Origin: Gekko japonicus
Lineage: Eukaryota
DNA: 64,000 bases
Direction: 5' to 3'
NCBI RefSeq assembly: GCF_001447785.1
Contig: NW_015164186.1
Location: forward strand, 779,781 to 843,780
The notes under the pieces: generated by a model
What the model saw: the letters and a program-made list of their open reading frames with translations, nothing else
The model's database searches: none
What the model was told of the DNA's origin: nothing
Program-made: the position numbers and the translations under genes
In this document: piece after piece, positions 14,159-60,049 of the stretch
How the letters are laid out: each line of letters opens with the position of its first letter
Position numbering within the stretch: the stretch's first letter is position 1

Positions 14159-24964
<10,806 letters not shown>

Positions 24965-36745: not shown

Positions 36746-37500
36746 TGTGGTGTATTAAAAATGACTTACATGAATCGCCACATACATTAACGTTCCATGT
36801 TAAGCTTTGAGCCAGACGAAGGCTCCTCCGAACTAACGCACTATTGGTGGCTCCACAACAGCGACCAATCAGAACTGCACCAATTCCCTGAGAGGGAAGA
36901 ACCCTCATTGGATGTTATCCGAGCAACCTCATTGGTTACTTTGTGTAAATAAGCGTGGCTACATTAGCCTGGGAATGTTTAAAAGGAGCCTAGCTCCCAA
37001 TGTTAATCTGTTCTGGTTATGACTTCTTTCAAGTGCTTGTTCGTACCTACAACAAAGTGATCAGCTGTATGTAGCCTAGACCACGGCTTGTCCGTAGATT
37101 CCCTCTTTTGAGGGGAAGCCTGAGGAGGCTCGAGTCTGGCCTGTTGGCACGGCATGCACACCCGCACCCATTCCTCATTCATTCATTCGAACCAGTCTAA
37201 CCCCAGTAGGTTGACCCGGTCCCCTTCAGCAACCAGCAATTATAAGGTAACACATTTCCCCTTGAACTCAACATCAACAGTATCCCTTCCCACCAAAGGA
37301 ATTTTCTTTCCTTGAAAATCGGACACCGTTGCGTCCGCAGGCTTGAGCCGCCACCAACTCCGGGTAGGGAACAGCCGCTGCCACGTCACCGAAGAGATCA
37401 CGGTGATGAACGATCCCGAGTCGACCTCCATGTTGCAGGGCACACCAGCGATGAGAGGGGTGGTGGAGATCTTTTCCTGACAGCTGGTGCAAAAAACGGT
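36746..37500 (-). mobile_element. Ty3/Gypsy remnant: aspartic protease fragment (about 37180-37500) plus LTR-like segment (36746-37054)
   Basis: IAGVPCNMEVDSGSFITVIS..IPLVG..VDVEFKG..*LLVAEGDRVNLLGLDWF has the DSG catalytic motif and LLGxDW; the adjacent segment has TGT..ACA ends. Confidence 0.75.
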
Positions 37501-37712
37501 AGATGCATTTTTCATTTTGTTCCATGCGGCTGCCTTGGTTGCATTCTTTGGGGCCTTGAGAATAAGTGAGTTGGTGGCCCGATCCCGGCAGGACAGGTCT
37601 GGTTCTGTGGTCTTATATGGGTGTACCTATGAGTGTATCTGTATGTAGGATTGCAGTGTTAAGAGCAGGTCAAATTGAAGAAGAAGATGAAAAGTTTTAT
37701 CAACTCTTCTCT

Positions 37713-38279: not shown

Positions 38280-38900
38280 TCAGTAAACCCGGGGACTCCT
38301 GAAAACTAGACACACAGCAATGACAAGCAAAGACAGGCGGAACTCCGGCAGGTGAAGCTTATCCTTAAAGCCACAAAGAAAGGGCGAGAGGCTGAAGCTC
38401 CTAGGCCAGCGGGCAGCTGTTTGCAGCGCTTTGTAAGCACCTCCCTCCAAAGGTTTGTCTGTGTCTTTAAGAGGACCCGGAAGCAGAGAGGGCGGCTCAG
38501 ACGTAGGACTGTGCATCGTGCAAGTCAAGGGACCTTCCTGTTATCAGCAGTGGTAACAAACCGCGTCAGGGTAGTCTGGTGGTGGGTCTGAAAAGAGGTG
38601 TTTGTACGTCGCTATGGAACCTGCAGGATGCCGTCCTGGCGCTGCCGTCGTTTGCTAACCTGGGTCTTTGGGTCGAGCTGTAGGGCTGATTTTCGCGTGG
38701 GAAAGATCTGATCCATCGAGGCGGCGGCGGCGGTAGCGGCTCCCATGGCAGAGGCAGCCGCAGCTGGAGAAGCATGGGAGAGGTACAGACGTGTTTGTTT
38801 GAATATCAAGTGTAAGATCAGTAAAACGGAATTTTGGCTAGAGGGGCAAAGACGTGCGTGTGCCTTGGGAAGCGATGCCTGTCAGAAACTTCTTTCAACT
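38280..38900 (+). promoter_or_regulatory. CpG island promoter / 5' UTR of the MARCHF5-like gene
   Basis: CpG-rich; ETS-like CCGGAAG at 38477; E2F-like TTTCGCGTGGGAAA at about 38691-38704; short (GGC)n run before the ATG. Confidence 0.7.
38745..38782 (+). CDS. MARCHF5L: MARCHF5-like exon 1 (coding part)
   Basis: cccATGG Kozak in a CpG island; MAEAAAAGEAWE(R)|gtacag; phase 2 matches exon 2. Confidence 0.8.
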
Positions 38901-41900
38901 CTCATAGAAACGGATACCTGACTCCATTGCATTTTTGTCTTGATCGTCTGTGTTAAAGAGGCCTGGCGTTCTTTGAGGGGTGTGCAAGGGTTCTCTCACT
39001 TAAGGACGACGAGTCAAACTTTCAGGAAATCCATATTCATCTCTCTCAGGTGGCTTCAGACAAGCTGGGATGTCTCTGTGTTACCCCACAACCACACAGA
39101 CCCTGTCTGCAACATGGGGGAAAATACTGACCTACTACCTTACAGGATTGTTGAAAGGATTATGAGAGGGGGGAAGGTCATGTTTGGGCACTTGGAAAAT
39201 TTTGCGTGGTGTAACCTGAGCGTGCTGGGTGTGCCCGTGTTACACCTGTGCCCTGGGCATATTTCTGTGTTCTAGGGCATGTTCTGGAACTCAGGCTGCA
39301 ATAGCCAGGGTTCCAGAATGATTAATTAAAATGCTTTTATGAAATACCTTTTGTGTGATTGAAGTACTTTAGGGGTATTATCTCCTTAATCTTTGTAGTA
39401 ACCCTGCTAGGTAGGGCAGTATGATTATCCTCATATTGCAGATAGGTGTTTGGGGCAGGAGGTAGTTAAAAGAGTAACTTGCCTGATACTACCTAGTGAG
39501 TTTATGTCCAAGGTGAGATTTAAACTGAGCATCTCCACCCTACTGTACTTGCTCACCAGGATTGGTAGGACTGATGCTTTACATGGTCCAGAGAAATTCA
39601 TTGGGTCCAGCAGAATTATGATGTAGTGAGATTTAAAAAACAAGAGTAGTAAATATAGGCTGTATACTGCTGAGTGAGATACAAAACCTCAAGGGACAGC
39701 GGCATGTATTTTAGTTCTGGCTGCCTGTTGGCATCTGAATACACTGGTCTTTGGTATAATGGGGGGGGGTTCCCCCTCTGGCCAAAAATATATATATTTC
39801 TCCCTGCTCACTTGTATAAACTTGCTATAGTTAATCAATGGGCTTCAGATGTAAAGACAAATAGGAAGTCATCAGTGGAACTCACTGTCACTTGATGTAA
39901 TAATGACTAAACATGGGAGTAGATTCAGAAAAATCAAATCTTCAGAAATGCTTAGGGTGTCTCTAAATGCTGTATTGCCCTGATAGGTGCCTGGATGACG
40001 GGATAGGTACTGGTACTATTCTTGAATATTGCATACCGAGTCTAGCCTGAAGCATCCAGAGTTGTCATTTGTGGCAGAGGAACAACTGGGCTAGAACTTA
40101 GCTTCAGGATCAGTAATCTGCCGGGGGAAGGGGGAGATGGTCTCCAGCCTAATTTGGGGATAGAGGAGAGAGGTGAAGTGAGAGAGGAGGAGGACCCTAA
40201 CTCCATTCTCACAATGGTTCTACTAGAAAATCTGGTTGTTTTCCAGGGAAGCCATTTTTGAAATGCAGGAGGATCCCAAGGCAAAGAAAGACATAGTTGT
40301 TACAGAAGACACAAGTCCTTTTCTGAACTGGGTGGTTTAACAAAATGTTGGTGGCCAGTTTAGGCTGAAAAACATGTTCATGCATATTTGCTGCTCCCAC
40401 ATTATGCTACATATGTGATTAGGCCATTGGATGTGGGAGTCTTTTTGGAAGCAGCAGCTGCAATGCCAACTCTTTCTTCAGACACAGAGGTTCTGTCAGT
40501 AGGGAAAGCCTGCATTTCCCTTTCAGTTGTTGCAGTGGAAGTGGCTGTGTAGCAGGGGGATGTTCCCAACTTTTAAAAGTCACTTATTTACACCCAAACA
40601 AATATCATTCATTTATGGCACTCTGTTCTATGCCTTTTGGGAACCATACATGGGGTTCCTATCTGGGTGCTTTCTGGGCTGAGAGCTGCATGCTGAGCTT
40701 TACCTTTGTAAAAAGCACCCGGGGAAGTTCCAAGCCTGTTGCAAGCATCTTCTTGCCTCCCTGAGTTCCTCCTTTGGTATCATGAGATACTCTGCTGCCT
40801 ACCTCTTCCAGTGACCTGCCTGTCTCCATGCTTCAGACAAAAATGAGTCTCCGTGGCCCATCTCATCTTTTTATTCATTTTGTCATTATTTAGCAACACA
40901 GAAGGAAGTCTTAAACTTTTTTCCTCCTTTGCTTGGGAAGGCTTCTCAGTGATCATTCTCTCTCTGATCTCCCTTTCCCAGGCACTGCTGGGTCTGTTTT
41001 GCTACCGAGGGTGATGACCGGTCAGCTGAGTGGGTCTGCCCCTGCCGTTGCAAAGGCTCCACCAAATGGATCCACCAGGCCTGCCTCCAGCGCTGGCTGG
41101 ATGAGAAGCAGAAAGGCAACAGCACAGGCAGAGTGAGCTGCCCGCAGTGTGGCACAGAATACCACATTGTCTTCCCCAAACTGGGTGAGTGTGAAACTGA
41201 CTTGGGATATCCAACTTGAGTGAGTGAACATTTCTCTGATTGCTGGGTAGTCTTACATTTCCTTGCAGGTTGTGCACACAGACTCCCCTGATTGCTGATA
41301 GCGCAACCGGAGCAACAGATTTGCTGGTCAAAGGCAAGCGGGTTCTTCTAAGGTGCAAAGGGTTCAGATACCCATCGATCCCCATTGTAGAAGTTCTCTT
41401 CAGAATAGTTTACCTTGCAGGCTATGGCTTTTCCTGGTTTCCTCCTCTCTTCCAGAATGGGCACACAAACCTTTCCTAAAATGTCAGCTGTGCCTAATGC
41501 TGGAATGCAGCCCCCTGACTAGTGTAGCGTTCCATCTTCTGAATTGCAGGGTCACCATTTAAAAAACCCTAACTACCTGTGGGCCACACAGCAGTCTTAA
41601 GCAATGGGTGGTGTGATTCAGCAATAATAACTGCCTGGCAGGATCAGACCAAAAATCCATCTTGTTCAGCACCATTAAGAATGGCCAACCAGAGAGGTTC
41701 GAGGGAAACTCATAAACCAGATAGGATAGTGATGCTTGTTCCCAGAACCTGGTAATCGGAGGTATGAATTTATGTCTGGATCTGAATTGACTTCTCTGAC
41801 TGGCAGCACTCCATCTTCTCAACACCTGTTACCTGAAATCCTTTAACTACATGCCAGGCAAGTGCTCTGCTACTAGCCCCAAGCCCCTCCAAAGTGGTAT

Positions 41901-44900
41901 GCAGCCTCTGCATTTGGAAATTTCATATTGCCTCCACATATTTTATTCTTTAAGACCACAGGTCAATGCAGTATATTTAAAATAAAATGTATAGAAACCA
42001 AGAACAGCAAACAAGAAGACGGATAATCAGAATTTGAATGAACAGTGGATGGTCCCCTACTTGAACAGACACAGGACTTCAGATATTGAGTGATCTGTTT
42101 TAATGACTGTGGTTTTTGGGGTAGAGCATGAATCAGTAATTGGATGAACAGCTTGTAAATCAGTTCAGGTAAATTAAAATTTCTTACAAACTGAAGGGGC
42201 AATTTGTTCATTCCAACAATTTTTTTTTTAAGGGTTAAGTCATGCCCCAAATGTTATATTGTACTGAAATGTGGAGTATTGAAGATTCAAAAGCTTTTGA
42301 AGTCATGCTTCATTTTGGGTGACATTCCTAAGAAAAGCTGCTCCTCTTGGCTTAGAAAACATGCCATCCATGGGCTACATAGTCATTGGGTTTGATCATG
42401 CCAAACTGTTTCTTTTTCTCTTGTTAGTAAAAGAGGTGATGAGCTCCCTGAACCATAGACAGAGGTTTTGTGCTGGGGAGGTGTGAGTGTAGATTGCTCT
42501 GTGTGTATTGCGAGTCAGTGGGGATCAGCAAAAAAACCCCCTAACTATAGCTAGTCTAATCCACTGAAAATTATGTTTTTCAAAAAATTTCTTAAATGTT
42601 ATTGTGATTCATTTAGGAAGCCTAAAAAAATAAGAGCTACATTTTTCTCAGTCTTTCTAGTTTCCTTCTGTTCTTTAGCTGGAATACTGGAATTTGAAGT
42701 TAGGACAAGGTTTTCTTCTTATTGGGCAATGGATATAAAGCATGGAGGGAGAGGCAGTTTTTATCTGGCCTGCAAGTCTACTCTGCAGTTTGTGGGGAGC
42801 ACTGGCCTGCTGGACCATAATATCATCTAGTGGGCTGATTGTCCTGAAAAATTGTTAAACAGTTCAAGTGCTATATTCTATTAAGAGCAGCAAAGCAGGA
42901 GGGGGACCATGTCTGGATATTTGCCCACTGCTGAGGGCTCTGAAATGGACAGTGGTAGTTCCTGTTTCTGGCTCTGGAACAGGAACAGCTGGTGCCCACT
43001 CAGAGCCCCAAGAGTGGGCAAAGAGCCAGATGTGACTCTGAGGCCAAAAAAAGTCTGTCCCCCCGTTATTGGGGTGAGACTGTGGCTCTGTGACAGTTCC
43101 AATCAGGCTCAGTCCATGGCATCCAGTCAAAAGGGTCAGGTAGAAGGTGATTTGAAAAACCTCAATTTAACAGCTTGGAAAGCTGCTGTTAGTCCATGTA
43201 AATAGTACTGATCTTGAATTGACTTGGTATAAATCCCCTTCGTGTGTTCAGATATTTTTAATGAAAGCTCAGATATGAGGGAGCCCTAATTCTGAAGGTA
43301 GTCAGGAAAGCATGAAGCTGTAGAAATGCCTGCGATGACTAAAAGCTTTCACTGACGTTTGTAATCTCCCCCTCCTTAGGACCCTTGGTATATTTCTTGC
43401 AGCAAGTGGACCGGGTTTTATCCAAAGTGAGCCCCTTTGCTGCTGCTGGCATTGTCGTGGGGACATTATACTGGTCAGCAGTTACCTATGGGGCAGTTAC
43501 TGTGATGCAGGTAATGTGAGGGTTTGTGGAAAGTGTGTTTGTGTGTATGTGTGTGCTTGTGTGTAAAGGAATACCACACCAGAAACCTTACGAAGAAGGC
43601 TTAGAGGGGTTGCCAGCTTTAATCAGTAGGTTAATTCAAGAAAGGTTAATCACTATTATCAAGAGATATCTTTTCCCAATTGCATAGGGTTATTTCCAAA
43701 AGCAAGACCATTTGATAGTGGTGCGTTTTTAGGCTGATAGTAACTTTGCTGAGTCTGGTGGCTCTTTGCATCACCAGAGCAAGTTGAGAGTGTTTATTAG
43801 ATCTGTAGAACAAAGTTTGAGTCCAGTGGCACCATTAAGACCAACAACTGTGTAAACTTTCATGTGCAAGCACAGTATCCGAGGAAGCGTACTTGCACAT
43901 GAAAGCTTGTACCATGAATAAAACTTTGTTGCTTTTAAAGGTGCCATTGATCTCAAATTTTGTTCTGCTGCTTCAGACCAACACAACTACCCCACCTGAA
44001 TCTATTAGATCTGTAGAAGAAGTTGATGAGGTGCTATCTAGCTAGTGGTGGGTTCAAATTGCAGGTCAGCCAAGGACTTACTCTCTTGCCTTTAGTTCTT
44101 CATTTGGAAGAAGGAGAATGATGAGGACTTGGCCTTTAAGCTGCTTGGCTCAGGATCTGCCTTTTTTGTTTGTGTTACTCTGTAAATTACCATGCTTAGT
44201 GACAATGCCACAAAATAATGCACTGGTGGGGGGAGGCTGTAAGAATAAGCAATTCAGGGAGAATTTTGTGTCATGCCCTGGAACTAGACTGTGCTCGAAA
44301 CCCGTACTGTGTGTCTTAAGGTTTGTGTTGTATAAATGAAACGTGGTTCTCCTGATTGATAGAAGTAGAAGTTGCCCACCTATCCTATCTATGTTGCTGA
44401 TTGATCTTCTCTCCTTTTGTAGGTTGTCGGCCATAAGAAGGGGCTGGATGTGATGGAGCGGGCAGACCCTCTCTTCTTGCTCATGGGGCTTCCTACTATC
44501 CCTGTGATGCTGGTCCTGGGCAAGATGATCCGCTGGGAAGACTACGTGCTGCGGGTCTGGCGGAAGTACTCCAGCAAGCTTCAGGCTCTGCAGGCTTTGG
44601 TGCCAGGTGAGTCCATCTACCTGCAAGCTGATTCTGATCTGGGCATCTTGCTTTGAATTGGAAGGAAGGAGAGGTAGATTTAGCCATGATACAGTGGGAG
44701 GACTGCTGGAAATTCTCCAAGCACCGGAAGGATTTGTTCAGCAACCTGTCTGGCTGCTAAGGTGTTACCTGGCATCGCTAACACATCTTGGCAACCGCAA
44801 GGGCTAGGATCTTGCAGGTGCTTTTGTGTTAATGACAGGTGGAATTCATAGGGGGTTGAATTTAGTGGTCATTCATCTTTCTGTGCTTTTATGGAATCAC

Positions 44901-46512
44901 TGCACAGGCCCACCTGTGGCAAACAAGAGGAAAGGAGAAAAAGAGTTAGAGATGGGCTGCAAAGTGTGCTGTCCCTTGTGAGCACAACCACCTCTGCCTG
45001 TTGAAAATCCAAAGAACAAGTGGAGAAAGCTGGAGGGAGTAACAGTCAGATGAACCGGGAACGAGGAGTCCCTCACCTCCTTTCTAGCTCTGTTCTTTGT
45101 CTCTGCTTTACTCTTTCCTTAGTGGGGGAGAGAGGAGCAAGGGGGAACTTAACCCTTAAGGGGAGAGAAGTAGAGATAAAGAACAGGTGGGGGAAGATAG
45201 NNNNNNNNNNNNNNNNNNNNNNNNNNNNNNNNNNNNNNNNNNNNNNNNNNNNNNNNNNNNNNNNNNNNNNNNNNNNNNNNNNNNNNNNNNNNNNNNNNNN
45301 NNNNNNNNNNNNNNNNNNNNNNNNNNNNNNNNNNNNNNNNNNNNNNNNNNNNNNNNNNNNNNNNNNNNNNNNNNNNNNNNNNNNNNNNNNNNNNNNNNNN
45401 NNNNNNNNNNNNNNNNNNNNNNNNNNNNNNNNNNNNNNNNNNNNNNNNNNNNNNNNNNNNNNNNNNNNNNNNNNNNNNNNNNNNNNNNNNNNNNNNNNNN
45501 NNNNNNNNNNNNNNNNNNNNNNNNNNNNNNNNNNNNNNNNNNNNNNNNNNNNNNNTCCTCTGCCTATAAGAGAGGGAATTCAGAATTCTCAAAAGTTGGA
45601 GCAGACTTGTGCCATTGTGGTGAGGCTAACATGTAGCCTGGCTCTTAAGGTGCTCTACATGCCAGGCTGTGTGACAAGCGTGGACGTAATCCAGCATAGA
45701 ATAGCTGAAAGGGCAGGTGTTAGACCACCTTGGGTGTGGGAGGCATAGCACAGGCATCCTGTTACTTCTCAAACACCCTGATTTTTCTTCTCTTTCATCT
45801 TCAGGGGTCAGCCGTCCCCTTGTGCAGGCACCACTGGCCGAGTCCCGCTACCAGAATGACCACCTGTCCATCTCGCGCACACTTTGTGGAGCTCTGGTCT
45901 TCCCTACCATTGCCAATCTAGTTGGCAGGGTCATGTTCCGCAGAGTGAACTCCAGCCTACAACGTACCATTCTGGTGAGGAATGGGATGGGGGAAGGGTG
46001 GAGGTATCATGCTTTGGCAGAATTTCAAAGGAGTCACTAGCAGGCACGGTGCCGCAATATCCCTCACCCATCTGCCTGGCGGGACCCTGGGACAGTGCAC
46101 CTGCCTGGCAGATAGGAACCCCCATGTTCAGCCCTCAGTGTCCCTCTAATGAAAAGGTTGCTGGGGCTGGGAGAGACCCCCTGCCAGATCCCTTGACAGA
46201 CTGCTGCCATTTGGAGTAGACAGTATTTCACAACCTGTATGGTATGCTTATTCAGTGCTTATCTTGTGAGGAGGGGGTGGCGGGAAAGGGGAGATAATCT
46301 GTGGCTGTCAACTTCACTTCCACCCTCTGTTTTTCCGGCAGGGAGGCATTGCCTTTGTCGCCATCAAGGGAGCCCTCAAAGTCTACTTCCGCCAGCAACA
46401 GTACTTGATCCAAGCCAACCGGCGCATCCTCAACTATGTGGAGAAGGGAGATGCGGAGAAGGGATTGGCTCAGCTCGACGAGGACAGCGGCAGTGAAGCG
46501 GGGCTCAGCTAG
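38745..46512 (+). CDS. MARCHF5L: E3 ubiquitin-protein ligase MARCHF5-like paralogue (RING-CH plus transmembrane region; 6 exons; 298 aa)
   Basis: Exons 38745-38782, 40982-41184 (203), 43380-43510 (131), 44423-44606 (184), 45805-45974 (170), 46342-46512; total 897 nt, open, all GT-AG. RING-CH CWVC..CRCKGSTKWIHQAC..CPQC; YWSAVTYGAVTVMQ; MERADPLFLLMGLPTIPVMLVLGKMIRWEDY. It differs from the highly conserved MARCHF5 at the N-terminus, linkers and tail, so it is called as a paralogue. Confidence 0.9.
40982..41184 (+). CDS. MARCHF5L: MARCHF5-like exon 2 (RING-CH)
   Basis: HCWVCFATEGDDRSAEWVCPCRCKGSTKWIHQACLQRWLDEKQKGNSTGRVSCPQCGTEYHIVFPKL|gtgagt. Confidence 0.95.
43380..43510 (+). CDS. MARCHF5L: MARCHF5-like exon 3
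   Basis: GPLVYFLQQVDRVLSKVSPFAAAGIVVGTLYWSAVTYGAVTVMQ|gtaatg. Confidence 0.95.
43811..44002. mobile_element. Penelope-type pseudo-LTR mini-element with inverted arms and a hammerhead-like core
   Basis: Arms are reverse complements of each other; 16-bp flanking duplication TATTAGATCTGTAGAA at 43795-43810 and 44003-44018. Relatives at 340-426, 3097-3176, 31424-31573, 36300-36490 and 62833-62871. Confidence 0.65.
44423..44606 (+). CDS. MARCHF5L: MARCHF5-like exon 4
   Basis: VVGHKKGLDVMERADPLFLLMGLPTIPVMLVLGKMIRWEDYVLRVWRKYSSKLQALQALVP|gtgagt. Confidence 0.95.
45201..45555. other. Assembly gap (355 N) in MARCHF5-like intron 4
   Basis: Run of N. Confidence 0.99.
45805..45974 (+). CDS. MARCHF5L: MARCHF5-like exon 5
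   Basis: GVSRPLVQAPLAESRYQNDHLSISRTLCGALVFPTIANLVGRVMFRRVNSSLQRTIL|gtgagg. Confidence 0.94.
46342..46512 (+). CDS. MARCHF5L: MARCHF5-like exon 6 (coding part)
   Basis: GGIAFVAIKGALKVYFRQQQYLIQANRRILNYVEKGDAEKGLAQLDEDSGSEAGLS*. Confidence 0.94.
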   Translation, partial: GGIAFVAIKGALKVYFRQQQYLIQANRRILNYVEKGDAEKGLAQLDEDSGSEAGLS

Positions 46513-46805
46513 GGTGGGAACCAGGCTGTCATAGGCCTGTTGCCTTTGGCCCAGCTCCACTCCCAAAGTGAAGCACCGACACACCGTGTGGGTTTGGCCA
46601 ACTGTGTACAGCGGGGGAGGGTGGTTTTAGGCTGGACTGGAAGAAGGGCTTTGCCAAGGTCTCCTCTGAGAGCAACTCTGATCTTTTTAGGCTGGTGGCT
46701 TATATGGAGTTGGGCAGAATGACCCTGTTCTCTTTAGTTTCCCCTCCACATTCGCTGTTAACCTTGTGTGGATTTGTCCCCGGACTTTCCATAAGTTATG
46801 GTTTA

Positions 46806-46811
46806 AATAAA
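46806..46811 (+). terminator. MARCHF5-like polyadenylation signal
   Basis: AATAAA about 295 nt after the stop codon, with GT/T-rich sequence downstream. Confidence 0.75.
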
Positions 46812-46980
46812 ACATGACTTAAGTTGTAAGCATTGTGTTCACAACTTGGAATTAATAGTACTGCTGTACTGTCTTCCTTCCTTGATCTGTACCACCAAGA
46901 GCTCAGGGAATCTACACTGAGGTTGTTTCATTTAAGGAGATAAGTTAGGCTGGGGAGAAAAATAGCTTGGGTAATGACTG

Positions 46981-47190
46981 CAGTGTTCCCTCTAAGCGGA
47001 ATTAGTGTGAGCTAGCTCACAGTTTTTTAGCCTCCGGCTCACACATTTTTGTCTTCGCTCAGGGAGGATGGCTCCAGAGCAAACTAATTTATGCAGTAGC
47101 CAACTTTAATGCCAGTAGCTCACAGCTTTAATGCCAGTAGCTCACAAAGTAGAATTTTTGCACACAAGACTCCACAACTTAGAGGGAGCA
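46981..47190. mobile_element. hAT MITE (CAGTGTTCCCTCTAAG family), inverted copy with an internal ~22-bp tandem duplication
   Basis: TIRs CAGTGTTCCCTCTAAG/CTTAGAGGGAGCATTG; CTTTAATGCCAGTAGCTCACA occurs twice. Confidence 0.82.
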
Positions 47191-49706
47191 TTGGTAATGA
47201 GCTTCATGGATGAAGAGGATTTGAACCCAGACCCCCACAGACCGCTCTCCTTTCCCACGCTGGCTGTTGTTGACAAACCAAAAAACGATTCAAAAGAGAT
47301 GTTCACTTTATTGATTTAGAGCACAAATGCCCTAGACTTTGGTATACTTACCGCTTTTCCTCTAAGGAGTTCAAATGTAATGTTTTATAGATACTCAACA
47401 AGCCTACAAGGCAAGGGGGAAAAGAGGCTTCTCCAAGATTAAAACATAAGCAAGCTTCATAGCAGGGTGGGAATTTGAATCTGATCACCTCAGACCCAAC
47501 CTGGTACACTGTAGGTTCTGCATCATCCTGGCAATTTCTGTCTTAGATGTCTTATTATAAAACCCTGGACAAATTCATATAGAACATAGGTCTGGCCATG
47601 GTTGCTACTAGCTATGATAATGCAGTGGAACCTCGATCGACAGAGGCACTAACCACTGAATAAAAGTTGTTGGAGACAAAATACGGGGAAGGCCCTCATC
47701 TCCCTAAAGCTCCGCTGGAAGTAGAATGCCGGACCTTGGTCTAATCCAGCAGGGCTGCTCTTCTCCTGCTACAGCAAAGAGTGGTAGTTGGAAACTGGGT
47801 CAGGGCCCAGTGCATGGAAACTCACTGGCATTCCCAAGTGGTTAATGAATAATGGAGGGTTGCCCACCTGGCTCCACTGCAGGGGACTGTTAAGTTGGGT
47901 CTTTTGGTTAAGTCACGCAATACTGATTTTTGGATTCATGGAGGAAAGCGCTGGGCCAGACACTGATGCCTGACTGCACATGATCCAAGTCTCTCACTAA
48001 TCCTGATTACCTTTCCCAGGTGCAGAATGCATGACATTTTAACAGCCTCCCTGTTGGATAATGCTAGTAAAAGATCATGCACCCTAGTCTTCAAGCCAAT
48101 AATGTGCAGTACAGACAGTCAAAGGACAGGGAACTGGAACCTCAACTGCACTGCCGTAAAACAAGTTCAGAATGTGCCTGGCGATCTGTAAGAGCCTCAC
48201 CTTTCTGCCCCATGACGTTACTTTCTTTCTGGCTCACTTTGGCCTACTGCAGTTTAAAAGCATACGAGATAATATTCTTGACGCACCAGACTATCCTGGA
48301 GCAAACCTCAGCCAGGATGGAAGGTATGCATTTCTGCATTGAATACCCTTTGCCAGGTCCTTACAATATTCTTGAGTTTCCTATAACAGCAGATCGTAGT
48401 ATCACCTTCTCTAGGTATCGCACAGCATTAATGTACATCTGAGAACCTTGTTTACTTCACTGCAGCAGAGTACAGTTACTGTTATAAAACACTTAACAAT
48501 GATCCCCCTAAATAAAACTAGTTGAAAGGGTATAAAAGGCCTATTTATCAAATCTTCTCTACAAATAAAATTCTGTTCAGGTTTTTTTTCTTTTGAATTG
48601 TGTAGTCCTCTGGACATTTCTTTCACAGATAAGCTGTAGACTTAAAGAAACTTTTAGGTGCTGTGAAGTTTAGCAAAAGCAGTTCAAATTACGGTCTACC
48701 CTGAGTGTCTACAAAGGACCCCTCTTCAATAGATCAAACCAATGGAACACAGAATGTGATATAAACTAAACTATTTGAATTAAAAAATGAACAATTCAAA
48801 TTACGCATAATGCATAGGCCAGGTACAAAAATGCAAAACATCAACAAATTGCCAAAAAATATAAGTATATAAATAAGGTAATATATGTATGAACAACAGG
48901 GAATAACAAAATAATATGTAAAATTATGAGTATATAATCATTGAAGAACAGCATAGTATTGATATTAGGTGTGAAACAATTACTATATGAATAATAATGA
49001 AAAAATATGCAACTGAATATAAATTGACTGCAAAGAAGTCTATGGGCGAAGAGGCGGGTGCTAACAGTCTCTTCCTCTTTCTCCTCTACCTTCTGTCTCA
49101 TATGCAGATGCCAACAGTGTTCAGACTTTTTAATCCCAGAGGGAGGTAAGCTCTCCTGCTAGCTCAGTCTCCCATAGGGAAGTAAGCAATGCTCAGGCTC
49201 TTAAGTGGGGGTGGGTGGCATATCAGTCCTACATCCCTTTCCTGAGGCCTATCTACACATTGTGCTATCCACAGGTCTGCTTTGAGTGCCCTCGAACCAG
49301 ACCCACACAGGGAGTTTTCTGATGAAACATAATTCTCAGGTTGCACAGGCACAATGAGGATTGAGACTGTGGTGGGCAATGAGGAAGGAACAACCCCACC
49401 CCCCCAGCCTCTACCACTTAACCACACAAACCACACCACCTCTTCCACGAGTGATCTACAATGCATTTTCCTACAATGCCTTCGCCTGGCTCTTATGTAC
49501 TCCAGTGAAGTTTACGCAGCAGAACTTCCTGGAGCATTGTGGGGGCCCCCACATTTTCATAAGGGAAGGTGCCACTTGGGTTCACCCCAGAGCAGCAAAA
49601 TTCAGTGAGGAGGGCGGGGTATAAATTGAAATAAATAAATAAATAAATAATACGTGTTGGGCGTGCCCAAAATCAGCTTTTTTTTAAACACCTAACCTCT
49701 GCCACT

Positions 49707-51172
49707 TAGAATCATAGAATGTTAGAGTTGGAAGGATCCTCGCAGGTCATCTATTCCAACCCCCTGCACTCTGCAGGAGCATAGCCGAAAGATAGCCTTA
49801 CAACATACCCGAAAGATGGTCGTCCAGCCTCCACTTGAAAATGTCCAGTGAAGGAGCATCCACCACCTCCCGAGGCAGTCTGTTCCATTGCTCAACCACT
49901 CTTACAGTTAGGAAGTTCCTCCTGATATTTAGCCGGTAACGACTCCCTTGTAGTTTCCACCCATTAGATCTAGTCTTGCAATCCGGAGCAAGAGAGACTA
50001 GATCCACTCCATCTTCTACATGACAGCCCTTCAAATATTTGAAGACTGCAATCATGTCCCCTCTAAGCCTTCTCTTTCCCAGGCTAAACATACCCAACTC
50101 TTTCAGCCTTTCCTCATAAGACTTGGATTCCAACCCTCTCACCATCTTGGTTGCCCTCTTCTGGACACGCTCGAGCTTGTCAACATCCTTCCTAAAATGT
50201 GGTGCCAAAAACTGGACACAGTACTCCAAGTGAGGCCTGACCATAGCAGATTAGAGCGGAACTACCACCTCCCGTGATTTGGACACAATGCTTCTGTTAA
50301 TGCATCCTAAGATTACATTAGCTTCCTTCGCAGTCACATTGCACTGCAGGCTCATGTTTAGCTTGTGATCAACCAGAACACCTAGACCCCTTTCACATGT
50401 GCTGCTGTCAAGCTGAGTCCCTCCAATTTTATATCTGTGCCTTTGATTTTTTGTACCTGAGAAACTTTGTCAAATGCTTTACTGAAATCTAGATACACTA
50501 TCTATATCCACAGCATTGCCAGAGTCAACTATTTTAGTAACTCTGTCAAAAAAGGAGATAAGGTTGGTCTGGCATGACTTATTCTTGAAAACCCCATGCT
50601 GGCTACTACCACTTAACTCATTCCGTTCAAGGTGCTCACAGACAGAGCATTTAATAATCTGCTGTAGAATTTTTTCCAGGTATTGATGTCAAACTGACAG
50701 GCCTGTAATTTCCTGGGTTCGTCTTTTTTCCCTTCTTGAAGATCGGGACAACATTTGCTCTTCTCCAGTCTTCCGGCACAACACCAGTACTCCAGGACAT
50801 CTCAAAGATTAGAGCCAGAGGCTCTGAAATAACATCTGCAATTTCTTTTAGCACCCTGGGATGCAAGCCATCATGCCCTGGAGATTTGAAAGTATTTAAG
50901 GCCGCTAGATGCTCCTTACTTACTCTGGACTGGCAGTTCCTCCTTCCTTCATATGCCCTGCATTCTTCAGTTTGTATACAGCTCGCCTTACAGTTAAAGA
51001 CCGACACAAAGTGAGAGTTGAGTAATTCCGCTTTGTCTTCATCCCTTGTTAAGGCTTGACCGTCTTCCCCTAGCAATGCGCTTACCCCATCCCTGTTCTT
51101 CTTTTTGCTCCGAACATAGGCATAGAAACCTTTCTTGTTATCTTTAGCATCCCTCGCAAGCCTCAGCTCCAT
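49707..51172 (-). mobile_element. CR1 LINE, 5'-truncated, with an internal deletion in the RT region
   Basis: VRPHLEYCVQF..FRKDVDKLERVQKRATKMVRGLE and VPEDWRRANVVPIFKKGKK..PGNYRPVSLTSIPG; ATTCTATGATTCT-type 3' tail; deletion junction near 50459. Confidence 0.93.
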
Positions 51173-51720
51173 CTTGGATGCACTGCTTGTTCGTACTGAA
51201 AAATATCCATCTCTGAATCTGACAAATGATAGAAGTTAAAAGGATCACAGATATTGACAATTTTCACATGGAAAGTAGCCTTCACCCAGTTGCCTTATAT
51301 TTTTAGGGAATAGTATCATTTCTTGTCTGGCCACAAGATGGTGCTGGTGGCCTAAATTAGACCATCTCCCTTTTATTTTTAGATAAGAAAGGGAATTTAA
51401 AAGTAGGGCAACAAAAGAAGCAAAGTATATTTGGTATGTGTGAGAGCACTTTTTAGGTATGCAGGAAAACCTTCCTTTGTAAATTAAAAAAGCACCCCTC
51501 CCAAGAAAAATGGTCCAACTAAGACTGAGCATGCTCATTGCCCTCCAGGAGACAGGGAATGTTGTCCAGAGCAGCTGAGCATCCTTTACAGAGGAGGGGA
51601 GCAGAAAATAGAGGGGAGAATGGAAAAATTGGCCTGATGGAACTCCTAAGAGCTCACGATATGGTAAAGAGGAAGATCTGTGTTGGGAGGAAAATTCCCA
51701 GGCATGTGTGCCTTCCCCAG

Positions 51721-51926
51721 CAATGTTCCCTCTAAGCTGTGGAGTCTTGATAGCAAAAATTCTACTTTGTGAGCTACTGGCATTAAAGTTGTGAGCCAGT
51801 GATTTGGCTACTGCATAAGTTAGTTTGCTCTGGAGCCATCCTTCCTGAGCTAAGACACAAATGTGTGAGCCGGAGTCTAAAAAACTGTGAGCTGGCTCAC
51901 ACTAACTCAGCTTAGAGGGAACACTG
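51721..51926. mobile_element. hAT MITE (CAGTGTTCCCTCTAAG family)
   Basis: TIRs present; 8-bp TSD TTCCCCAG/CTCCCCAG. Confidence 0.85.
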
Positions 51927-52199
51927 CTCCCCAGTAATCTCTTCATAGCCCTCCCAATTTCTACCTCTTACCATTTATATTTTATCCAACTTTTCAGATA
52001 AAAACTGTCTCCCCAGTTTATGTCAATTGAAACTAACTCCATGGCGGTGGTGGCAGCCAGAGCTGTTCACAAAAGAAAAAGAGAGACGGGCTCTGCCTTC
52101 AGCAGAGTGGGGGTTAGAACCAAGTGGTGCATTCCTGACAGGCACTGGCATCCAAGTGGGGCCAGCCTAGTCTTCCCTGGCTGGTGTTCTCGCTGGAGG

Positions 52200-52406
52200 T
52201 ACGGTTGCCAGCCTTGGGTTGGGGAATGCCTGGAGATTTTTTTTTGGGGGGGGGTGAAGCCTAAGGAGTGTGGGGCTTGGGTCATAATGCCATAGAGCCC
52301 AACTTCCAAGGGGGCCATTTTCTCCAGGTGAACTGATCTCTGTTGCCTGGAGGTCAGTTGTAATAGTAGGAGATCTCCAGCCGCCACCTGGAGGCTGGCA
52401 ACCCTT
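52200..52406. mobile_element. hAT-type MITE, same family, opposite orientation
   Basis: TACGGTTGCC..GGCAACCCT ends; internal similarity to the reverse complement of 2232-2450. Confidence 0.7.
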
Positions 52407-54469
52407 GAGGGAGGCAGTGCCACTGCTCAGTGGCCTTAGGCCAGGATGAGCTTGCTGTCACAGGGTAGCTGGAATCTGGAGCAGAGTTCTTTCTGCTAAT
52501 ACAGACGGCAGGGACTTGGGTGGGCTTCTGAGTCAGATCTAGCAAGACAGTTCTTAAGGATGCATACCTGCCACCTTGCATATCAACGTGGGATAGCATT
52601 CCCATCTTTCTGCTTGGGAGGAGGTGGTCCTGATTCATCCTTGCGCTGCCATTTTCCCGGTAAGTGTAACCAGCTTCCCCGCCCTTCAGGATGCCCCTCC
52701 CCATTCTATTTCCAGAAGGGCTCTTCAAGGTGTTGTGCTGCCTACTAACCACCCCTCCCCATCTTCTTGCTTTGTGCTTAATTTAGATGCTTTCGGCAAT
52801 GCAACCCACATTTGGCATCCTAGATCTGCACAGTTGCTAAGTGACAAGTCTCTGTGGTTTGGCTCCGGCCTGAATCATCAAGTGCCCCCCTCCCCATCAT
52901 CCCGCACAGATATCCCCCAGCCTCCTCTTCTTCTCCTCATCCTTTTAGAACTTTCCCATAATTTCTCTGCTCCCCATTCATCCCAACAAGGCTTGTTCAG
53001 GAGAAGACACGTGCATGCATGTGTGCGTGCACACCCACACACAGAGCGGCTTATGGCCTGTGTTCATTAGTGGGACAGGAAGGAAACCATGTGGACTTTC
53101 TGCCTCAGGCACCAAAACTGTTGCAGGCCAGCTCTGCCTCTTGGGGCTTGTGAAAAGTTGATGTGCCAGTCACAAAACTGGGTCAGGCCTACACTTCTGG
53201 ATGCCTGATTTATTCTCTGGGTAACAGGGAGAGCTGCAAAAGCCTGCTGCAGTTCATCCATTCATAGTTTCCATGAAAAAAACCAAGGGTCCCTTCCCAC
53301 CCCATGGGAGTTGTGCACACTGATCCCACGAAGGGCAGGGGGCTACCACTATATGCTGGTGCAGCAGTGCTACTTTCAAATCATCTCCAAGTTTGCTCAG
53401 GAAAATCACTTTGAGCTCAGACTTACACCACACATTAAAAAGGGATACAGTGACCATGCAACTCCTGCTGCTAGGACTTTGGATCAGATGTGCACCTGGA
53501 GTTCAGTGCAGGGAACTCAATTCCCAGATACACAGAGGCCTGATTCAGATCAGGACTGCAGCATTTTCCCAACCTGAACTAGTCCCATGGGGAATTTATT
53601 TGCCCCACTGAGGAAACTTACATGTAGCCAACCGCACATGTAAGTTTCCCTAACAGACAACTATTGGATCCATGGGCCCCTCTCAGGCTGAGAACGGTCC
53701 CAGTCCAAGTCAGGCCCACCACACATACCTAGGAATTAAGTCTTCAGCCGGGAATGGTCCTAACACAACTGCTGAAAGTACATGGGGACTTTGTAACATG
53801 TGAGTTGGCCCTTGATCAGCCTCACATACCACCACCATAAGAGTAATAATACTGGCCTGACAGGCTTGTTGTTAGGATTCCAAGATCATGTATGTGGGCA
53901 GCTTTGAACATTCAAAAGCACTGTTTAATTTCTAAGTGTTATGTGTTGTTAGGAGTAGGTCATCTTCCAACACAGTATAGCTTGGATCCTCAGCCTTTAT
54001 GGATGAGGAGAACCCATTCAAGCAGTATCCTCAGAAGCTCTGCATGGCTCGGTCTTGCTTTGGAAAAACAACAGTTGTTTGGTGTCTCTTTAAATAACCA
54101 TGCAGGGGGAGGGGGGAAGCAAAACTTCTTGGTTCTTTGGGGGTTTAATGATGCCTCTGGAAAGCAAACCCAGGATGGGAGAGGAGCTGAGTGAATTATG
54201 CCAGGTCGATCCACCTGCTGAGAGGCAATCTTCGCACCACAATCAAATTGCCTGCTCCCTCTGGAAAGGGAGCTGTGTTTTGTTCTCACTAACTGTGGAT
54301 GGAAATGTTACATAAACTCTTCTGACACACAAGAAAGGACAGCAAAACTATCCTGTAAACACAGCCTAAGACAAGACTCAGGGCCAAGTTACACAGGAGG
54401 TATGGGTTGTGCAACTGAACTTCCTAACCCTTCTGCTTTTACTTAAATTAATCTGGGGGGGGGGGGATT

Positions 54470-54716
54470 GATAGTGTGGCACAGTGGTTAACAGCGATGG
54501 ACTCTAATCTGGAGAACTGGGTTTGATTCCTCATTCGTCCACATGGAGCCAGCTGGGTGACCTTGGGTCAGTCAGAGTTCTCTCGGAGCTCTCTTAGCAC
54601 CACTTAACTCTCAGGGTGGCCTGTTGTGGGAAGAGGAAGGGAAGGAGATTGTAAGCCACTCTGAGACTCCTTCGGGTAGAGAAAAGTGAGGTATAAAACC
54701 CAGCTCTTCTTCTTCT
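54470..54716 (+). mobile_element. tRNA-derived SINE with CORE-like body and (TTC)n tail
   Basis: A/B-box head TGGCACAGTGGTT..GGTTTGATTCC; GTGACCTTGGG. Related minus-strand copies at about 28445-28577, 25620-25782 and 35200-35360. Confidence 0.7.
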
Positions 54717-55920
54717 CAGGTAGCAGCCTGGGGAAGGGGATGTTCATCCCTTTCCCTGGTACCATTTGTCTGATCATAGCCATACTGTCCCTGAAACTAT
54801 CGTTAGCCCTATGGACAGAGGGAGTGGGGTGGGATACAGGTACAGAACCTGGATTTCCTGGCCACCCACACCTTGTTTTCATGCATAACAATGTTCTGAG
54901 CATGTCTTCTGACTGGAAGGAGGCCATTACTGACCAGTGACTTGTGCAGAGATGCACCAGACAGCCTCCTCTGGGGGTGACTGATTCCGCTGCTGTCTCT
55001 ACAGTAAGAATAACTGAACTCTGCAGTCACGCCCAAGGCAGAATAACAGCAGCAGAGTTATCCAGTGGAGTGATTAGAAAGAGACCAGTTCAGAGACGCA
55101 TGCAGAGACATGACAGGCAGCCTCATCTTTGGATGGATGTGCACTTGTGTTGTGCTCTCCGGACATTTTAATTTTTTCATTTATACATTTCTCATGACAC
55201 ACTAGCAGTTCTCTCATGTCCCACAGACTGAGAATTATTGCTGTAGTGTGCCATGTGCAGAAATGGTGCTATTATAAGTAACTGTAATAAATCCTTCAAA
55301 GTGCATTTTCATGTGCCCAGGGGATACAGCTGAGGCAGGATCTGGTGGATTTGGGGTGGAGTGTGAATAAATATGCAGGGTTGGGGCAGGGTTTGGCAGA
55401 TTTTAGGTAGATTCTGGTACAATATAGAGTTTGCATGGTTTTTACACACACACCCATTCCCAGTTACCTGGCAGAGCCCCACCTCCCAAGGCCAACCACT
55501 GCCGGAATCCTGGCCCATTTGCGGTATAGCCCTGAGCTCCCCAACCCTTCCCTTATACTAACCAGGAGCCCAGCTTGTGTGTCATTAATGACATAGGTGG
55601 GAAAGAATGGTAATTGGAATCATTGTGTGCTACGTAGGACTGGCTTATTCTCCCTGGAAACAGCACTGAAGAAAGACAAAAAGAAAGAGTGGCATTTGTC
55701 ACAGCCGCAGCATGAATTGATCTCTGTACTTCAATCTACTGCAGCATGCCAGGAGGAGGGGCATCAACTCCCCCCCCCATGTGCTGTTTTCCCAGCCTGA
55801 AGCAGCCCTGGAGGTTGTCTATTTGTCACATTGGGGAAACTCTGGTGTACTCCGTCAGTTCATACTGAGCCCTCAAAGGGACAAATAACATGCAGAATCC
55901 ACTGGCTTTTCACACTGCCT

Positions 55921-56525
55921 AGTGACAGACTTCACGTTCCTGGGATCCCAGTTCACCGCAGACTGTGACTGCAGCCATGAAATTAAAAGACGCCTGCTCC
56001 TTGGGAGGAAAGCGATGGCGAACCTAGACAGCATGATAAAAAGTAGAGACATCACCCTGCCAACAAAAGTCCGCATGGTCAAAGCAATGGTATTCCCAGT
56101 TGTCATGTATAGCTGCGAGAGTTGAACTATAAGGAAGGCCGAGCGCTGAAGAATAGGTTCTTTTGAACTATGGTGCTGGAGAAGACTCTTGAGAGTCCCT
56201 TGGAGTGCAAGAAGATCAAATCAGTCAAGCCTAAAAGAAATCAACCCTGACTGTTCCCTGGAAGGCCAGATACTGAAACTGAAGCTCAAATACTTTGGCC
56301 ACCAAATGAGAAGGGAGCCCTCACTGGAGAAGACCCTGATGCTGGGAAAGATTGAAGGTCAAAGAAGACGGGGACGGCAAAGGATGAGATGGTTAGACAG
56401 TGTCATAGATGCAACAAACATGAAATTGAGCAAACTTCAGAGGACGGCGGAAGACAGGAGGGCCTGGCGGGATCTGGTCCATGGGGTCGTGGAGAGTCGG
56501 ACTCGACTGTGCAACTGAACAACAA
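55921..56525 (+). mobile_element. RTE-BovB LINE 3' fragment
   Basis: Closely similar to 3957-4565; ends CTGAACAACAA. Confidence 0.92.
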
Positions 56526-58050
56526 AGTGCTAGTTATCCCCAGGGCCATTTCAAGTTAGGAAAATGACATGGGGGTGGGGTGGGAGGTTGTAGGGTTTTA
56601 AGAGCCCAACAAACATACAATGTCTTAAATTGTTACTTGGGGTATTAAATAAAGAATAGATAAAAATCCCAACTCATTAAGCTATCAGCTCAGTATTTAT
56701 AACTATGCGTTTATGTAAATATACACTCACACAATTGCTTCCTCTCAAATCTGAACTTCTGTTCACAAACACACACACACTTGCTTTCCCCCCTACCACT
56801 GAGAGATAATGGCATATCAGGTTGAATGCACTTTCTCTTGGAGTTGGGTCTTCTGGCACTTCTGCGGAGTTCTGTCTACTTTTTCCTCAGCAGTTCAAGC
56901 TACTGGTCAGCCTTGTTAAAATGGCTTCCATCTGGCTCTCACCCCCTTCCTTGCTTTGCATCTGCTGTTTGTGACATGCTGCTGTGCTTGATCTTTCAGT
57001 CCTTTCTGAACTCTTGCCAGGGGTTCCCTGCCTCCCGACGAGTCCTTTCATCTCTACCAACTCCTCAACTGACCCTTTCCCAACTGTCACTCACTTCCAG
57101 CTTTCTCCCATCTCCCCAACAACTAGATCCTCTCGGCAGCCTACGGATGCCATATGGCCACTCCTTATGTAAAGTTCACTGCGGGATAGTGCTCTCTTTC
57201 TGGGAAGCCTGTCTGCCATAGTTGATCTCACTGAGGAAAACCCTGATAAAGCACCCAAGGAACCTGAGAGTTTCCTAGAACACTGTTTAAAAAACACTGG
57301 CCTAGTGGGAAAGGCCTTCAGGTTTTGAAATACTGTGTCTTGCCTTCGGTCTCCTGTGACTTCCCTTCTAGGGAAGTGGCAGATACAGAAGTTCACAACC
57401 CTGCATCTCGTCATTTTGGTTTTGGAGTCCTGCTACTCTGACACTGAAAAAGAGCTTTAGTTTCTGCAGAGAAACAGCCATTCAGCCTCATCACAGGGCC
57501 CCTGACTGTGCCAGCCCTCCAAGCAGGCAGTCATGCCGTGCCAAGGACCCAAGTTCCCAGCAAATCTGGGATCCCAGATGTCCTCCCACAAGAATGTTCT
57601 AACAAGTATGTGCAATCTGCTGTTGGTGCCAGATGGGTTCTAACTGAGGTTTGTTTTTCCAGAGACATCCATACCTCTCAGGCATCTTAGATGCTAAGAT
57701 GAATTCCAGAGGGGAAAGCCCCATTACCCGATTGTAGCAAATGCAACAAAGGGTCTGGTGGTACCTTCTAAAGGAACCCATTTATTGTGGTACAAGCTTT
57801 GGTAGGACCAGAGCCTGTTTGGACCATAGCATGAAATGTTATCTTCAGTTTGTGGATCCACACACACACATGCACGCACGCATGCACACATGGGTAAAGA
57901 GGGAAACGGGGGGGGGGGGCTTGCCCTGCAAAAGATCTGTGGCATTTCAATGCAAAGCCCAATTTGCCATTAAATTCCAGGGGCTAAGCACGGTGGAGGG
58001 GTGGAGGTGGTGAAAGTAGACACACTTGACTAGGTCTGCAAGTCTGGGCA

Positions 58051-58268
58051 TAGGGCTGCCAACCTTCAGGTGAGGGCTGGAAATCTCCCAGAATTACAGC
58101 TGATCTCCGGATGACAGAGACCACTTCCCTTGGAGCAAATGGCTGCTTTGGAGGGTGGACTCTCTGGCACAATACCCTGCAAAGGTCCCTCCCTTCTCCA
58201 AACCCTGCCCTCCCCAGGTTCCGCCCCCAAATCTCCAGTTATTTCCCAGGCGGGAGTTGGCAACCTTA
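58051..58268. mobile_element. hAT-type MITE, same family as 2232-2450
   Basis: TAGGGCTGCC..GGCAACCTTA; 8-bp TSD TCTGGGCA/TCTGGTCA. Confidence 0.8.
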
Positions 58269-59749: not shown

Positions 59750-60049
59750 GGAGCCTGGAGGACTGAGCCGAAGCCGCGCCGGAGCATGCCGTGCGATGGA
59801 AGGGCCCTGCTGACCCAACACGGAAAGACCACCGGAAGGGAAGGAGCCAGAAGCCGAGCTGCCGAGCCGACGAAGCCGACCTGGGAAGAAAAGATCGACC
59901 AGTCCCTCCACTAGGTGCCGGTAGGGATTGTCCCCACCCCCTAGTATCTGTGGCCATAGGTTAGGGATAACTGATTAACTGTAGCCGCTCAGAGACCCCT
60001 TGGGGGGTTCGAGCGGGGTAGTAAGTTGAAATAAATAAATACATAAATA
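59750..60049 (+). mobile_element. Young L2-type retroposon 3' end with an 11-bp TSD
   Basis: TGTAGCCGCTCAGAG..GAGCGGGGTA..(TAAA)n tail; TSD CATAAAAAAGC at 59739-59749 and 60050-60060; CpGs retained. Confidence 0.75.

What the first reader, a model, noticed from the sequence alone, without database searches (positions are those of the whole stretch)
38745..46512. Intact second MARCHF5 (MITOL) paralogue next to ACTR1B-COX5B, probably an ancient duplicate absent from mammals
Seen: a complete 298-aa, six-exon gene with an intact RING-CH domain, hydrophobic segments, CpG promoter and polyA signal. Known (from memory): human MARCHF5 starts MPDQALQQMLDRSCWVC, ends NYPEQEEA and is very conserved. It lies on chr10q in the same arm region as ACTR1A, no MARCH gene sits beside human COX5B/ACTR1B, and fish have a march5-like gene. 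Inference: this is the whole-genome-duplication sister copy linked to ACTR1B. That would give reptiles a largely unstudied second mitochondrial outer-membrane E3 ligase (MARCHF5 regulates fission, MAVS and MCL1/NOXA).
Basis: partly seen in the sequence, partly recalled or inferred. Interest (0 to 1): 0.7.

Follow-up and report, generated by a model that had tools for sequence, protein, structure and literature searches.

The report
Known MARCHF5 sister gene mammals lack
This is an intact, transcribed second copy of the mitochondrial ubiquitin-ligase gene MARCHF5 that sharks, fish and lizards share and that has not been found in mammals or birds; it likely works as a similar membrane ligase, and it was already listed in a 2018 gecko genome paper, though we found no test of its function in reptiles.

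Summary
Six exons (38745-46512) encode a 298-aa RING-CH protein with four hydrophobic segments, and all five introns are spliced in three RNA-seq runs. A separate canonical MARCHF5 lies on another scaffold, between an IDE-type and a CPEB gene. Trees place the window protein in a clade (100/100) with chimaera, sharks, gar, teleosts, lungfish, coelacanth, caecilians, salamanders, turtles and lepidosaurs, so the duplication predates the shark/bony-fish split. Its scaffold shares FAM178, Arp1 and CNNM paralogues with a second scaffold, which fits whole-genome duplication. No bird, crocodilian, frog or mammal copy turned up. It is not new: Hara et al. 2018 (PMC5901865, Table S10) list this very protein as an 'elusive' MARCH5-like gene with 0 bird and 0 mammal orthologues. 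It belongs with fish MARCH5-A, which was called 'fish specific'. It likely works as an outer-mitochondrial-membrane E3 ligase overlapping MARCHF5. It has evolved about five times faster and has a conserved acidic tail that MARCHF5 lacks. Its function is untested here.

The parts
38400..38900 (+). CpG-rich promoter / 5' region; transcript reaches upstream to at least 38486
   Evidence: CpG o/e 0.80, GC 0.55; contig start and read depth
38745..38782 (+). coding exon 1 (ATG, 38 nt)
   Evidence: joint 38782>40982 in 27 raw reads over 3 runs
40982..41184 (+). exon 2 (203 nt): RING-CH domain, C15 C18 C34 C36 H44 C47 C66 C69
   Evidence: Pfam RINGv E 2.2e-13; ligand conservation
43380..43510 (+). exon 3 (131 nt): hydrophobic segment 1 with a GxxxG motif (104-108)
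44423..44606 (+). exon 4 (184 nt): second GxxxG (127-131) and hydrophobic segment 2
   Evidence: 84% identical to the canonical exon
45201..45555 (.). N stretch inside intron 4; does not touch an exon
   Evidence: reads skip it
45805..45974 (+). exon 5 (170 nt, one codon longer than the canonical 167): variable loop and hydrophobic segment 3
46342..46512 (+). exon 6 coding part: hydrophobic segment 4, acidic C-terminal tail with the [ED]DS[GS] motif, stop TAG
46806..46811 (+). AATAAA, likely polyadenylation signal
   Evidence: assembled contig reaches 46747
20720..23522 (-). neighbour: Arp1 (ACTR1B) exons, opposite strand
   Evidence: Pfam Actin; 88% identical to a second Arp1 on C12293
9603..9704 (+). 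neighbour: COX5B exon

Best explanation
The gene is an intact, spliced paralogue of MARCHF5 that split from it before sharks and bony fish diverged, likely in a vertebrate whole-genome duplication, and it likely encodes a four-pass outer-mitochondrial-membrane RING-CH ubiquitin ligase with substrates overlapping those of MARCHF5. Shown here: gene structure, splicing, a separate canonical MARCHF5, tree position, the paralogous gene block, and retention of all zinc ligands and both GxxxG motifs. Inferred: the cytosolic RING-CH binds an E2 and ubiquitinates membrane substrates recognised through the transmembrane helices, as mammalian MARCHF5 does for MCL1:NOXA and MAVS. Partial redundancy, in a GC-rich and fast-evolving region, would explain about fivefold faster change and separate losses in mammals, archosaurs and frogs. 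The conserved acidic tail would be a paralogue-specific regulatory (possibly phosphorylated) segment.
For: Structure and splicing. Canonical copy on C6130, with the same five intron positions and phases and 197 of 272 aligned residues identical. It lies between an M16 peptidase (8-10 kb) and a CPEB ZZ exon (224 kb). Paralogue clade 100/100 in a 34-row IQ-TREE run and 259 of 398 rows in FastTree, support 99. AU tests reject a sauropsid-only (p 1e-7) and a teleost-only (p 6e-6) duplication. Paralogous block: C4476 has CNNM x2, FAM178 and Arp1; C12293 has FAM178, Arp1 and CNNM. The eight zinc ligands, K41, W51 and K55 are unchanged in all 230-235 paralogue rows with a residue there, of 235 aligned. 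The equivalents of H43 and C65/C68, needed for ligase activity of human MARCHF5 (PMC13649115 passages; PMC7370232 passages), are kept. 4 of 4 exonic variants seen in reads are synonymous. Distance from the duplication node is 0.57 versus 0.10, and GC3 is 0.68 versus 0.43, matching the published profile of 'elusive' genes. Published listing with 0 birds and 0 mammals.
Against: There are no localisation, activity or substrate data for any reptile copy. No lamprey, hagfish or amphioxus sequence was in the trees (the outgroups were molluscs), so the split cannot be tied to a particular duplication round. MARCHF5's own neighbours are not mirrored beside the window gene: none of 5 CPEB and none of 13 M16 matches are on C4476, and the ankyrin exon tested on C4476 matched C5551, not C6130. 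That C6130 and C12293 lie on one chromosome is recalled from human 10q23-24, not shown. Both white-shark copies are listed with the same longest contig length, 122,117,421. 18 columns differ consistently between the clades (one probably an alignment artefact) and the tail differs, so equal specificity cannot be assumed.
Confidence: 0.75

Rival explanations
1. The paralogue has specialised, for example as an infection-induced or differently localised ligase with its own substrates, controlled through its acidic tail, and is not a partly redundant MARCHF5.
For: [ED]DS[GS] is present in 165 of 190 paralogue tails and 0 of 69 canonical tails (median tail 23 versus 7 aa), with 18 clade-diagnostic columns. 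It has been kept in sharks, ray-fins, lungfish, amphibians and reptiles. A review reports trout MARCH5A playing a greater role than MARCH5B against VHSV (PMC4897099 passage). Splice-joint reads for the last two introns are comparable to or above the canonical gene's: 24/58/35 versus 5/50/21 in three runs.
Against: RING, transmembrane segments 1-2 and the central loop are nearly unchanged against MARCHF5 (exon 2 79%, exon 4 84%). No copy has been found in mammals, birds, alligators, Xenopus or stickleback, and cichlid copies have drifted to about 52% identity with other fish copies, which fits dispensability. The trout result is known to me only through a review, and equating Rebl's MARCH5A with this clade is inferred.
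Confidence: 0.25
2. The pair arose by a local or segmental duplication in an early jawed vertebrate and only later came to lie in a paralogous block.
For: No CPEB or M16 paralogue lies beside the window gene. No cyclostome test was possible.
Against: The gene lies 18-190 kb from Arp1 and FAM178 paralogues that recur in the same order and orientation on C12293. In green turtle, coelacanth, gar, cloudy catshark, leopard gecko and worm lizard the two copies are on contigs of different length, the paralogue often on a small one (about 16-21 Mb in sea turtles, skate, whale shark and zebra shark).
Confidence: 0.12
3. It is a pseudogene, a retrocopy, a recent reptile duplicate, or simply the relocated MARCHF5 orthologue.
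For: Only its faster rate.
Against: Intact frame, five spliced introns, synonymous-only variants; a separate canonical gene exists; AU p 1e-7 against a sauropsid-only origin.
Confidence: 0.01

Closest known systems
'Elusive' MARCH5-like gene, group AmnPhylome_0001257_sub_001, Hara et al. 2018 (PMC5901865, Additional file 9, Table S10 row 182)
   Same: The row lists XP_015263653.1, which is letter for letter the window's protein. It is present in 10 of 19 species and absent from human, dog, opossum, chicken, zebra finch, two alligators, Xenopus and stickleback, with 0 birds and 0 mammals in a deep search, and is paired with MARCH5.
   Different: It appears only as a table row (0 hits for 'march5' in the main text).
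Fish MARCH5-A / trout MARCH5A (Rebl et al. 2011 via review PMC4897099; Wu et al. 2017 PMC5526904 supplement)
   Same: Zebrafish NP_956033.2, gar XP_006625374.1 and the coelacanth copy, labelled MARCH5-A by Wu et al., fall in the window protein's clade, as does trout NP_001157538. Six exons and four transmembrane domains are reported.
   Different: It was described as fish specific and listed only for fishes; the clade also holds amphibians and reptiles.
Mammalian MARCHF5 / MITOL
   Same: Same exon-intron plan, RING-CH ligands, GxxxG motifs and four hydrophobic segments; 72% identity to the canonical copy of the same genome.
   Different: Sister clade, not orthologue. About fivefold faster evolution, a longer acidic C-terminal tail, and a different gene neighbourhood.

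Membership tests
MARCH5/MITOL subfamily of RING-CH E3 ligases | N-terminal RING-CH (C4HC3) domain with all eight zinc ligands | tested here: met
   Pfam RINGv E 2.2e-13; C15, C18, C34, C36, H44, C47, C66, C69
MARCH5/MITOL subfamily of RING-CH E3 ligases | Four membrane-spanning segments after the RING | tested here: met
   Four hydrophobic stretches by hydropathy, aligned to those of MARCHF5; the AlphaFold model was too weak to add support (pLDDT 54)
MARCH5/MITOL subfamily of RING-CH E3 ligases | Residues needed for ligase activity (H43, C65/C68) and GxxxG dimerisation motifs | tested here: met
   H44, C66, C69 and GxxxG at 104-108 and 127-131; roles from passages of PMC13649115 and PMC7370232; that these two motifs are the ones changed in the 4GL mutant is inferred
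MARCH5/MITOL subfamily of RING-CH E3 ligases | Outer mitochondrial membrane location | not testable with these tools
   inferred from homology only
MARCH5/MITOL subfamily of RING-CH E3 ligases | E3 activity on MARCHF5 substrates (MCL1:NOXA, MAVS, fission factors) | not testable with these tools
   no assay possible
Orthologue of mammalian MARCHF5 | Nests in the MARCHF5 clade | tested here: not met
Orthologue of mammalian MARCHF5 | Lies between CPEB3 and IDE (human order recalled) | tested here: not met
   the copy on C6130 does; the window gene does not
'Elusive' vertebrate ohnologues (Hara et al. 2018) | Present in at least two reptiles, absent from mammals and birds | tested here: met
   no named bird, crocodilian, frog or mammal row in the clade; published 0 and 0
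'Elusive' vertebrate ohnologues (Hara et al. 2018) | Has a widely kept paralogue and evolves faster, in GC-richer DNA | tested here: met
   0.57 versus 0.10 changes per site; GC3 0.68 versus 0.43
Whole-genome-duplication ohnologue pair | Both genes lie in paralogous blocks | tested here: inconclusive
   C4476 and C12293 share three paralogue families, but canonical MARCHF5 is on a third scaffold whose link to C12293 is recalled, not shown
Whole-genome-duplication ohnologue pair | Duplication dated between the invertebrate chordate split and the jawed-vertebrate radiation | tested here: inconclusive
   older than the shark/bony-fish split and younger than the mollusc split; no chordate outgroup was available

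The most novel reading that the evidence does not exclude
Most jawed vertebrates carry a second, separately regulated mitochondrial ubiquitin ligase whose conserved acidic phospho-tail gives it its own substrates (for example an infection-induced brake on MAVS signalling). Mammals, birds plus crocodilians, and frogs each lost it independently, and some fish 'march5' data actually describe this gene.
Probability: 0.2. Interest if true: 0.45.

Novelty: already known. Interest (0 to 1): 0.22.

Why it matters
Modest. The gene's existence and its absence from mammals and birds are in print as a supplementary table row, and RefSeq annotates it as 'MARCHF5-like' in many reptiles. 'Fish-specific MARCH5A' is really a jawed-vertebrate paralogue. 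The zebrafish Swiss-Prot entry MARH5_DANRE and many teleost records named plain 'MARCHF5' belong to it, so fish-mammal comparisons can mix paralogues. It is also a natural, long-diverged variant (72% identical, different tail) for mapping which parts of MARCHF5 pick substrates.

Tried and rejected
AlphaFold2 on a 26-row alignment gave mean pLDDT 54 and pTM 0.34; it was not used and no fold search was run. A PDB sequence search found no MARCH5 structure, only two RING-CH domains. The ESM Atlas returned MARCHF5-named clusters without a useful taxon breakdown. Earlier scan findings: none. The sequencing-run search listed no holder on record as RNA; raw RNA runs under the same species label were laid instead. 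An attempt to link C4476 directly to C6130 through an ankyrin paralogue pointed to C5551. An HMM search of 50%-identity representatives was screened for diverged bird, frog or mammal copies; of 10 looked up, 3 carried names (cichlids, a pipefish, a sawfly) and 7 were unnamed, one of which looks turtle-like by sequence. One cichlid-cluster protein carries a second label 'Mustela putorius furo' beside 'Oreochromis niloticus'; it was rejected as a mislabel, since a canonical-type protein has the same double label. 109 of 127 ORFs downstream (47-64 kb) had no Pfam match, so the next gene was not identified. Rebl et al. 2011 is not held. The zebrafish march5 morphant paper (PMC6999709) gave no accession in the passages searched, so which paralogue it studied is unresolved. 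Searching 'marchf5l/march5l/marchf5-like/march5-like' gave 0 papers. The supplements of PMC10208646 had no march5 hit. A beta-TrCP degron reading of the tail was considered and dropped, because the spacing does not fit the DSGxxS consensus (consensus recalled).

Full report
Observation. The gene is as described. Six exons at 38745-38782, 40982-41184, 43380-43510, 44423-44606, 45805-45974 and 46342-46512, with GT..AG introns, join to 897 nt, or 298 aa plus stop. Exon 2 is a RING-variant domain (Pfam RINGv, E 2.2e-13), followed by four hydrophobic stretches. The 5' region is CpG-rich and an AATAAA lies at 46806. The joined protein is identical to database protein P0239, XP_015263653.1, labelled 'MARCH5-like' of Gekko japonicus.

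Expression. Three raw RNA-seq runs under the same species label each show reads across all 5 introns (2 to 31 reads per joint per run), and one assembled contig of a fourth run covers all six exons from 38486 to 46747 without a difference. The four exonic variants in these reads are all synonymous, a small sample. For the last two introns, joint reads were 24, 58 and 35 for the window gene and 5, 50 and 21 for canonical MARCHF5 in the same runs. The two genes are therefore expressed at the same order of magnitude. Tissues are unknown, only 3-12% of each run was read, and the 3' UTRs differ in length, so no finer ranking is claimed.

A separate canonical gene. Exons 2 and 4 find exactly one other close match in the genome, on scaffold C6130 (79% and 84%). 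That gene has exons of 44, 203, 131, 184, 167 and 117 coding bases with the same intron phases, and 197 of 272 aligned residues are identical. It is flanked by an M16 peptidase (IDE type) at 8-10 kb and a CPEB ZZ exon at 224 kb, both on the opposite strand. This is the CPEB3-MARCHF5-IDE arrangement recalled for human.

Phylogeny. Of 450 proteins then in hand, 398 of 200-480 aa were put in a FastTree run (52 short, long or domain-duplicated rows left out). They split into 259 paralogue-type, 124 canonical and 15 mollusc rows without overlap. A careful IQ-TREE run on 34 of 60 selected rows (long, partial and redundant rows dropped) gives the paralogue clade 100/100 and the canonical clade 88/82. 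The paralogue clade holds chimaera, sharks and rays, bichir, gar, teleosts, lungfish, coelacanth, a caecilian, axolotl, turtles, tuatara and squamates. AU tests reject a sauropsid-only (p 1.1e-7) and a teleost-only (p 5.6e-6) duplication. The distance from the duplication node is 0.57 for the window protein and 0.10 for its canonical partner; it is 0.38 versus 0.12 in sharks and 0.54 versus 0.07 in coelacanth. No cyclostome or amphioxus row was available, so the upper date is loose.

Synteny. The window's scaffold C4476 carries two CNNM genes (245 and 307 kb), FAM178 (632-727 kb), COX5B (789 kb) and Arp1 (800 kb). Scaffold C12293 carries FAM178 (155-167 kb), the other Arp1 (276 kb) and a CNNM (976 kb), with FAM178 and Arp1 in the same order and orientation. 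This is a paralogous block, matching human 2q11.2 versus 10q24 (recalled). In six other species with both copies listed, the contigs differ. Whole-genome duplication is the likely origin (about 0.85) but is not proven here.

Losses. No named bird, crocodilian, frog or mammal protein falls in the paralogue clade, while these groups are plentiful in the canonical clade. My own test has a gap: only the best 120 of 232 and of 871 hits were listed, clusters show at most 15 members, and cichlid copies have drifted to about 52% identity, so a diverged copy could hide. The published search is deeper. Hara et al. 2018 (PMC5901865; I read passages, sections 9 and 10, and rows 3, 182 and 183 of Additional file 9) found 0 bird and 0 mammal orthologues among gene sets of 112 mammals and 68 birds plus transcriptomes of 66 and 55 species. 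They also found none in two alligators, Xenopus tropicalis or stickleback. If the absences are real, the tree implies separate losses in mammals, archosaurs and frogs (inferred).

How it likely works. All eight zinc ligands, K41, W51 and K55 are unchanged in every paralogue row that has a residue there (230-235 of 235). The equivalents of H43 and C65/C68 are kept. Their mutation abolishes MARCHF5 function (PMC13649115 and PMC7370232, passages). Two GxxxG motifs are kept too; such motifs mediate MARCHF5 dimerisation. The best reading is a four-pass outer-mitochondrial-membrane E3 that recruits an E2 with its RING and recognises membrane substrates through its helices, as proposed for MCL1 and reported for MAVS (PMC4918326, search listing only). 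Location, activity and substrates are inferred, not shown. What differs from MARCHF5 is 18 diagnostic columns (one probably an alignment artefact) and a longer acidic tail: [ED]DS[GS] occurs in 165 of 190 paralogue tails that could be anchored and in 0 of 69 canonical ones. It resembles a CK2-type phosphorylation site (consensus recalled). The one functional hint is that trout MARCH5A plays a greater part than MARCH5B against VHSV, known to me only through a review passage (PMC4897099).

What is known. This exact protein is row 182 of Table S10 in Hara et al. 2018, classed as 'elusive' and paired with MARCH5. Its faster rate and higher GC (GC3 0.68 versus 0.43) fit that paper's general profile. 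Wu et al. 2017 (PMC5526904; passages and supplement rows) list MARCH5-A for seven fishes, including gar and coelacanth, but no tetrapod. I found no functional study of a reptile or amphibian copy in the held library; subscription journals are mostly missing, Rebl et al. 2011 could not be read, and six figure supplements and one large text file of Hara et al. were not searched.

Verdict. A real, intact, expressed MARCHF5 paralogue of jawed-vertebrate age. Novelty: already known. Interest 0.22, carried by the untested function, the conserved tail and the naming confusion in fish.

Noticed in passing
P0309 (NP_956033.2, Swiss-Prot MARH5_DANRE) and many teleost records: Entries named plain 'MARCHF5' belong to the paralogue clade, so fish studies and comparisons may use the wrong orthologue. 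Which copy the zebrafish morphant paper PMC6999709 used could not be told.
   Followed up: partly
P0467 and its cluster (cichlids): The cichlid copy is only about 52% identical to other fish paralogues, while the zinc ligands look intact: strong lineage-specific acceleration.
   Followed up: partly
P0185 and P0278: Both white-shark copies are listed with the same longest contig length (122,117,421), which would put the two paralogues on one chromosome in that species.
   Followed up: no
alignment A1, rows P0278, P0289, P0050: Cartilaginous-fish paralogues have serine in place of the first glycine of the first GxxxG motif.
   Followed up: no
window 38720-38731: A GGC-repeat stretch just upstream of the ATG shows 3-base insertions and deletions between RNA runs.
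   Followed up: no
window 43807-43990 and 46980-47100: Short, highly transcribed interspersed repeats in intron 3 and just past the 3' end attract thousands of unrelated reads.
   Followed up: no
window 3357-3803 (+), 49801-51235 (-), 37243-37626 (-): Retroelement fragments: RVT_1 match at 3357-3803. The others resemble LINE and LTR-retrotransposon pieces by eye (recalled); the two frames scanned there had no Pfam match.
   Followed up: no
G000 scaffolds C6130, C6731, C12893, C3387: Peptidase M16 middle-domain matches lie on four scaffolds, more than the two genes (IDE, nardilysin) recalled for human; there may be another retained duplicate.
   Followed up: no
window 47000-64000: No Pfam match in 109 of 127 ORFs tested; the gene downstream was not identified.
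   Followed up: partly
L048:6038-6968 (-) and L050:8492-8830 (-): Two ankyrin-repeat genes on C4476 beside the CNNM pair, consistent with the ANKRD23-ANKRD39 order recalled for human 2q11.2.
   Followed up: partly
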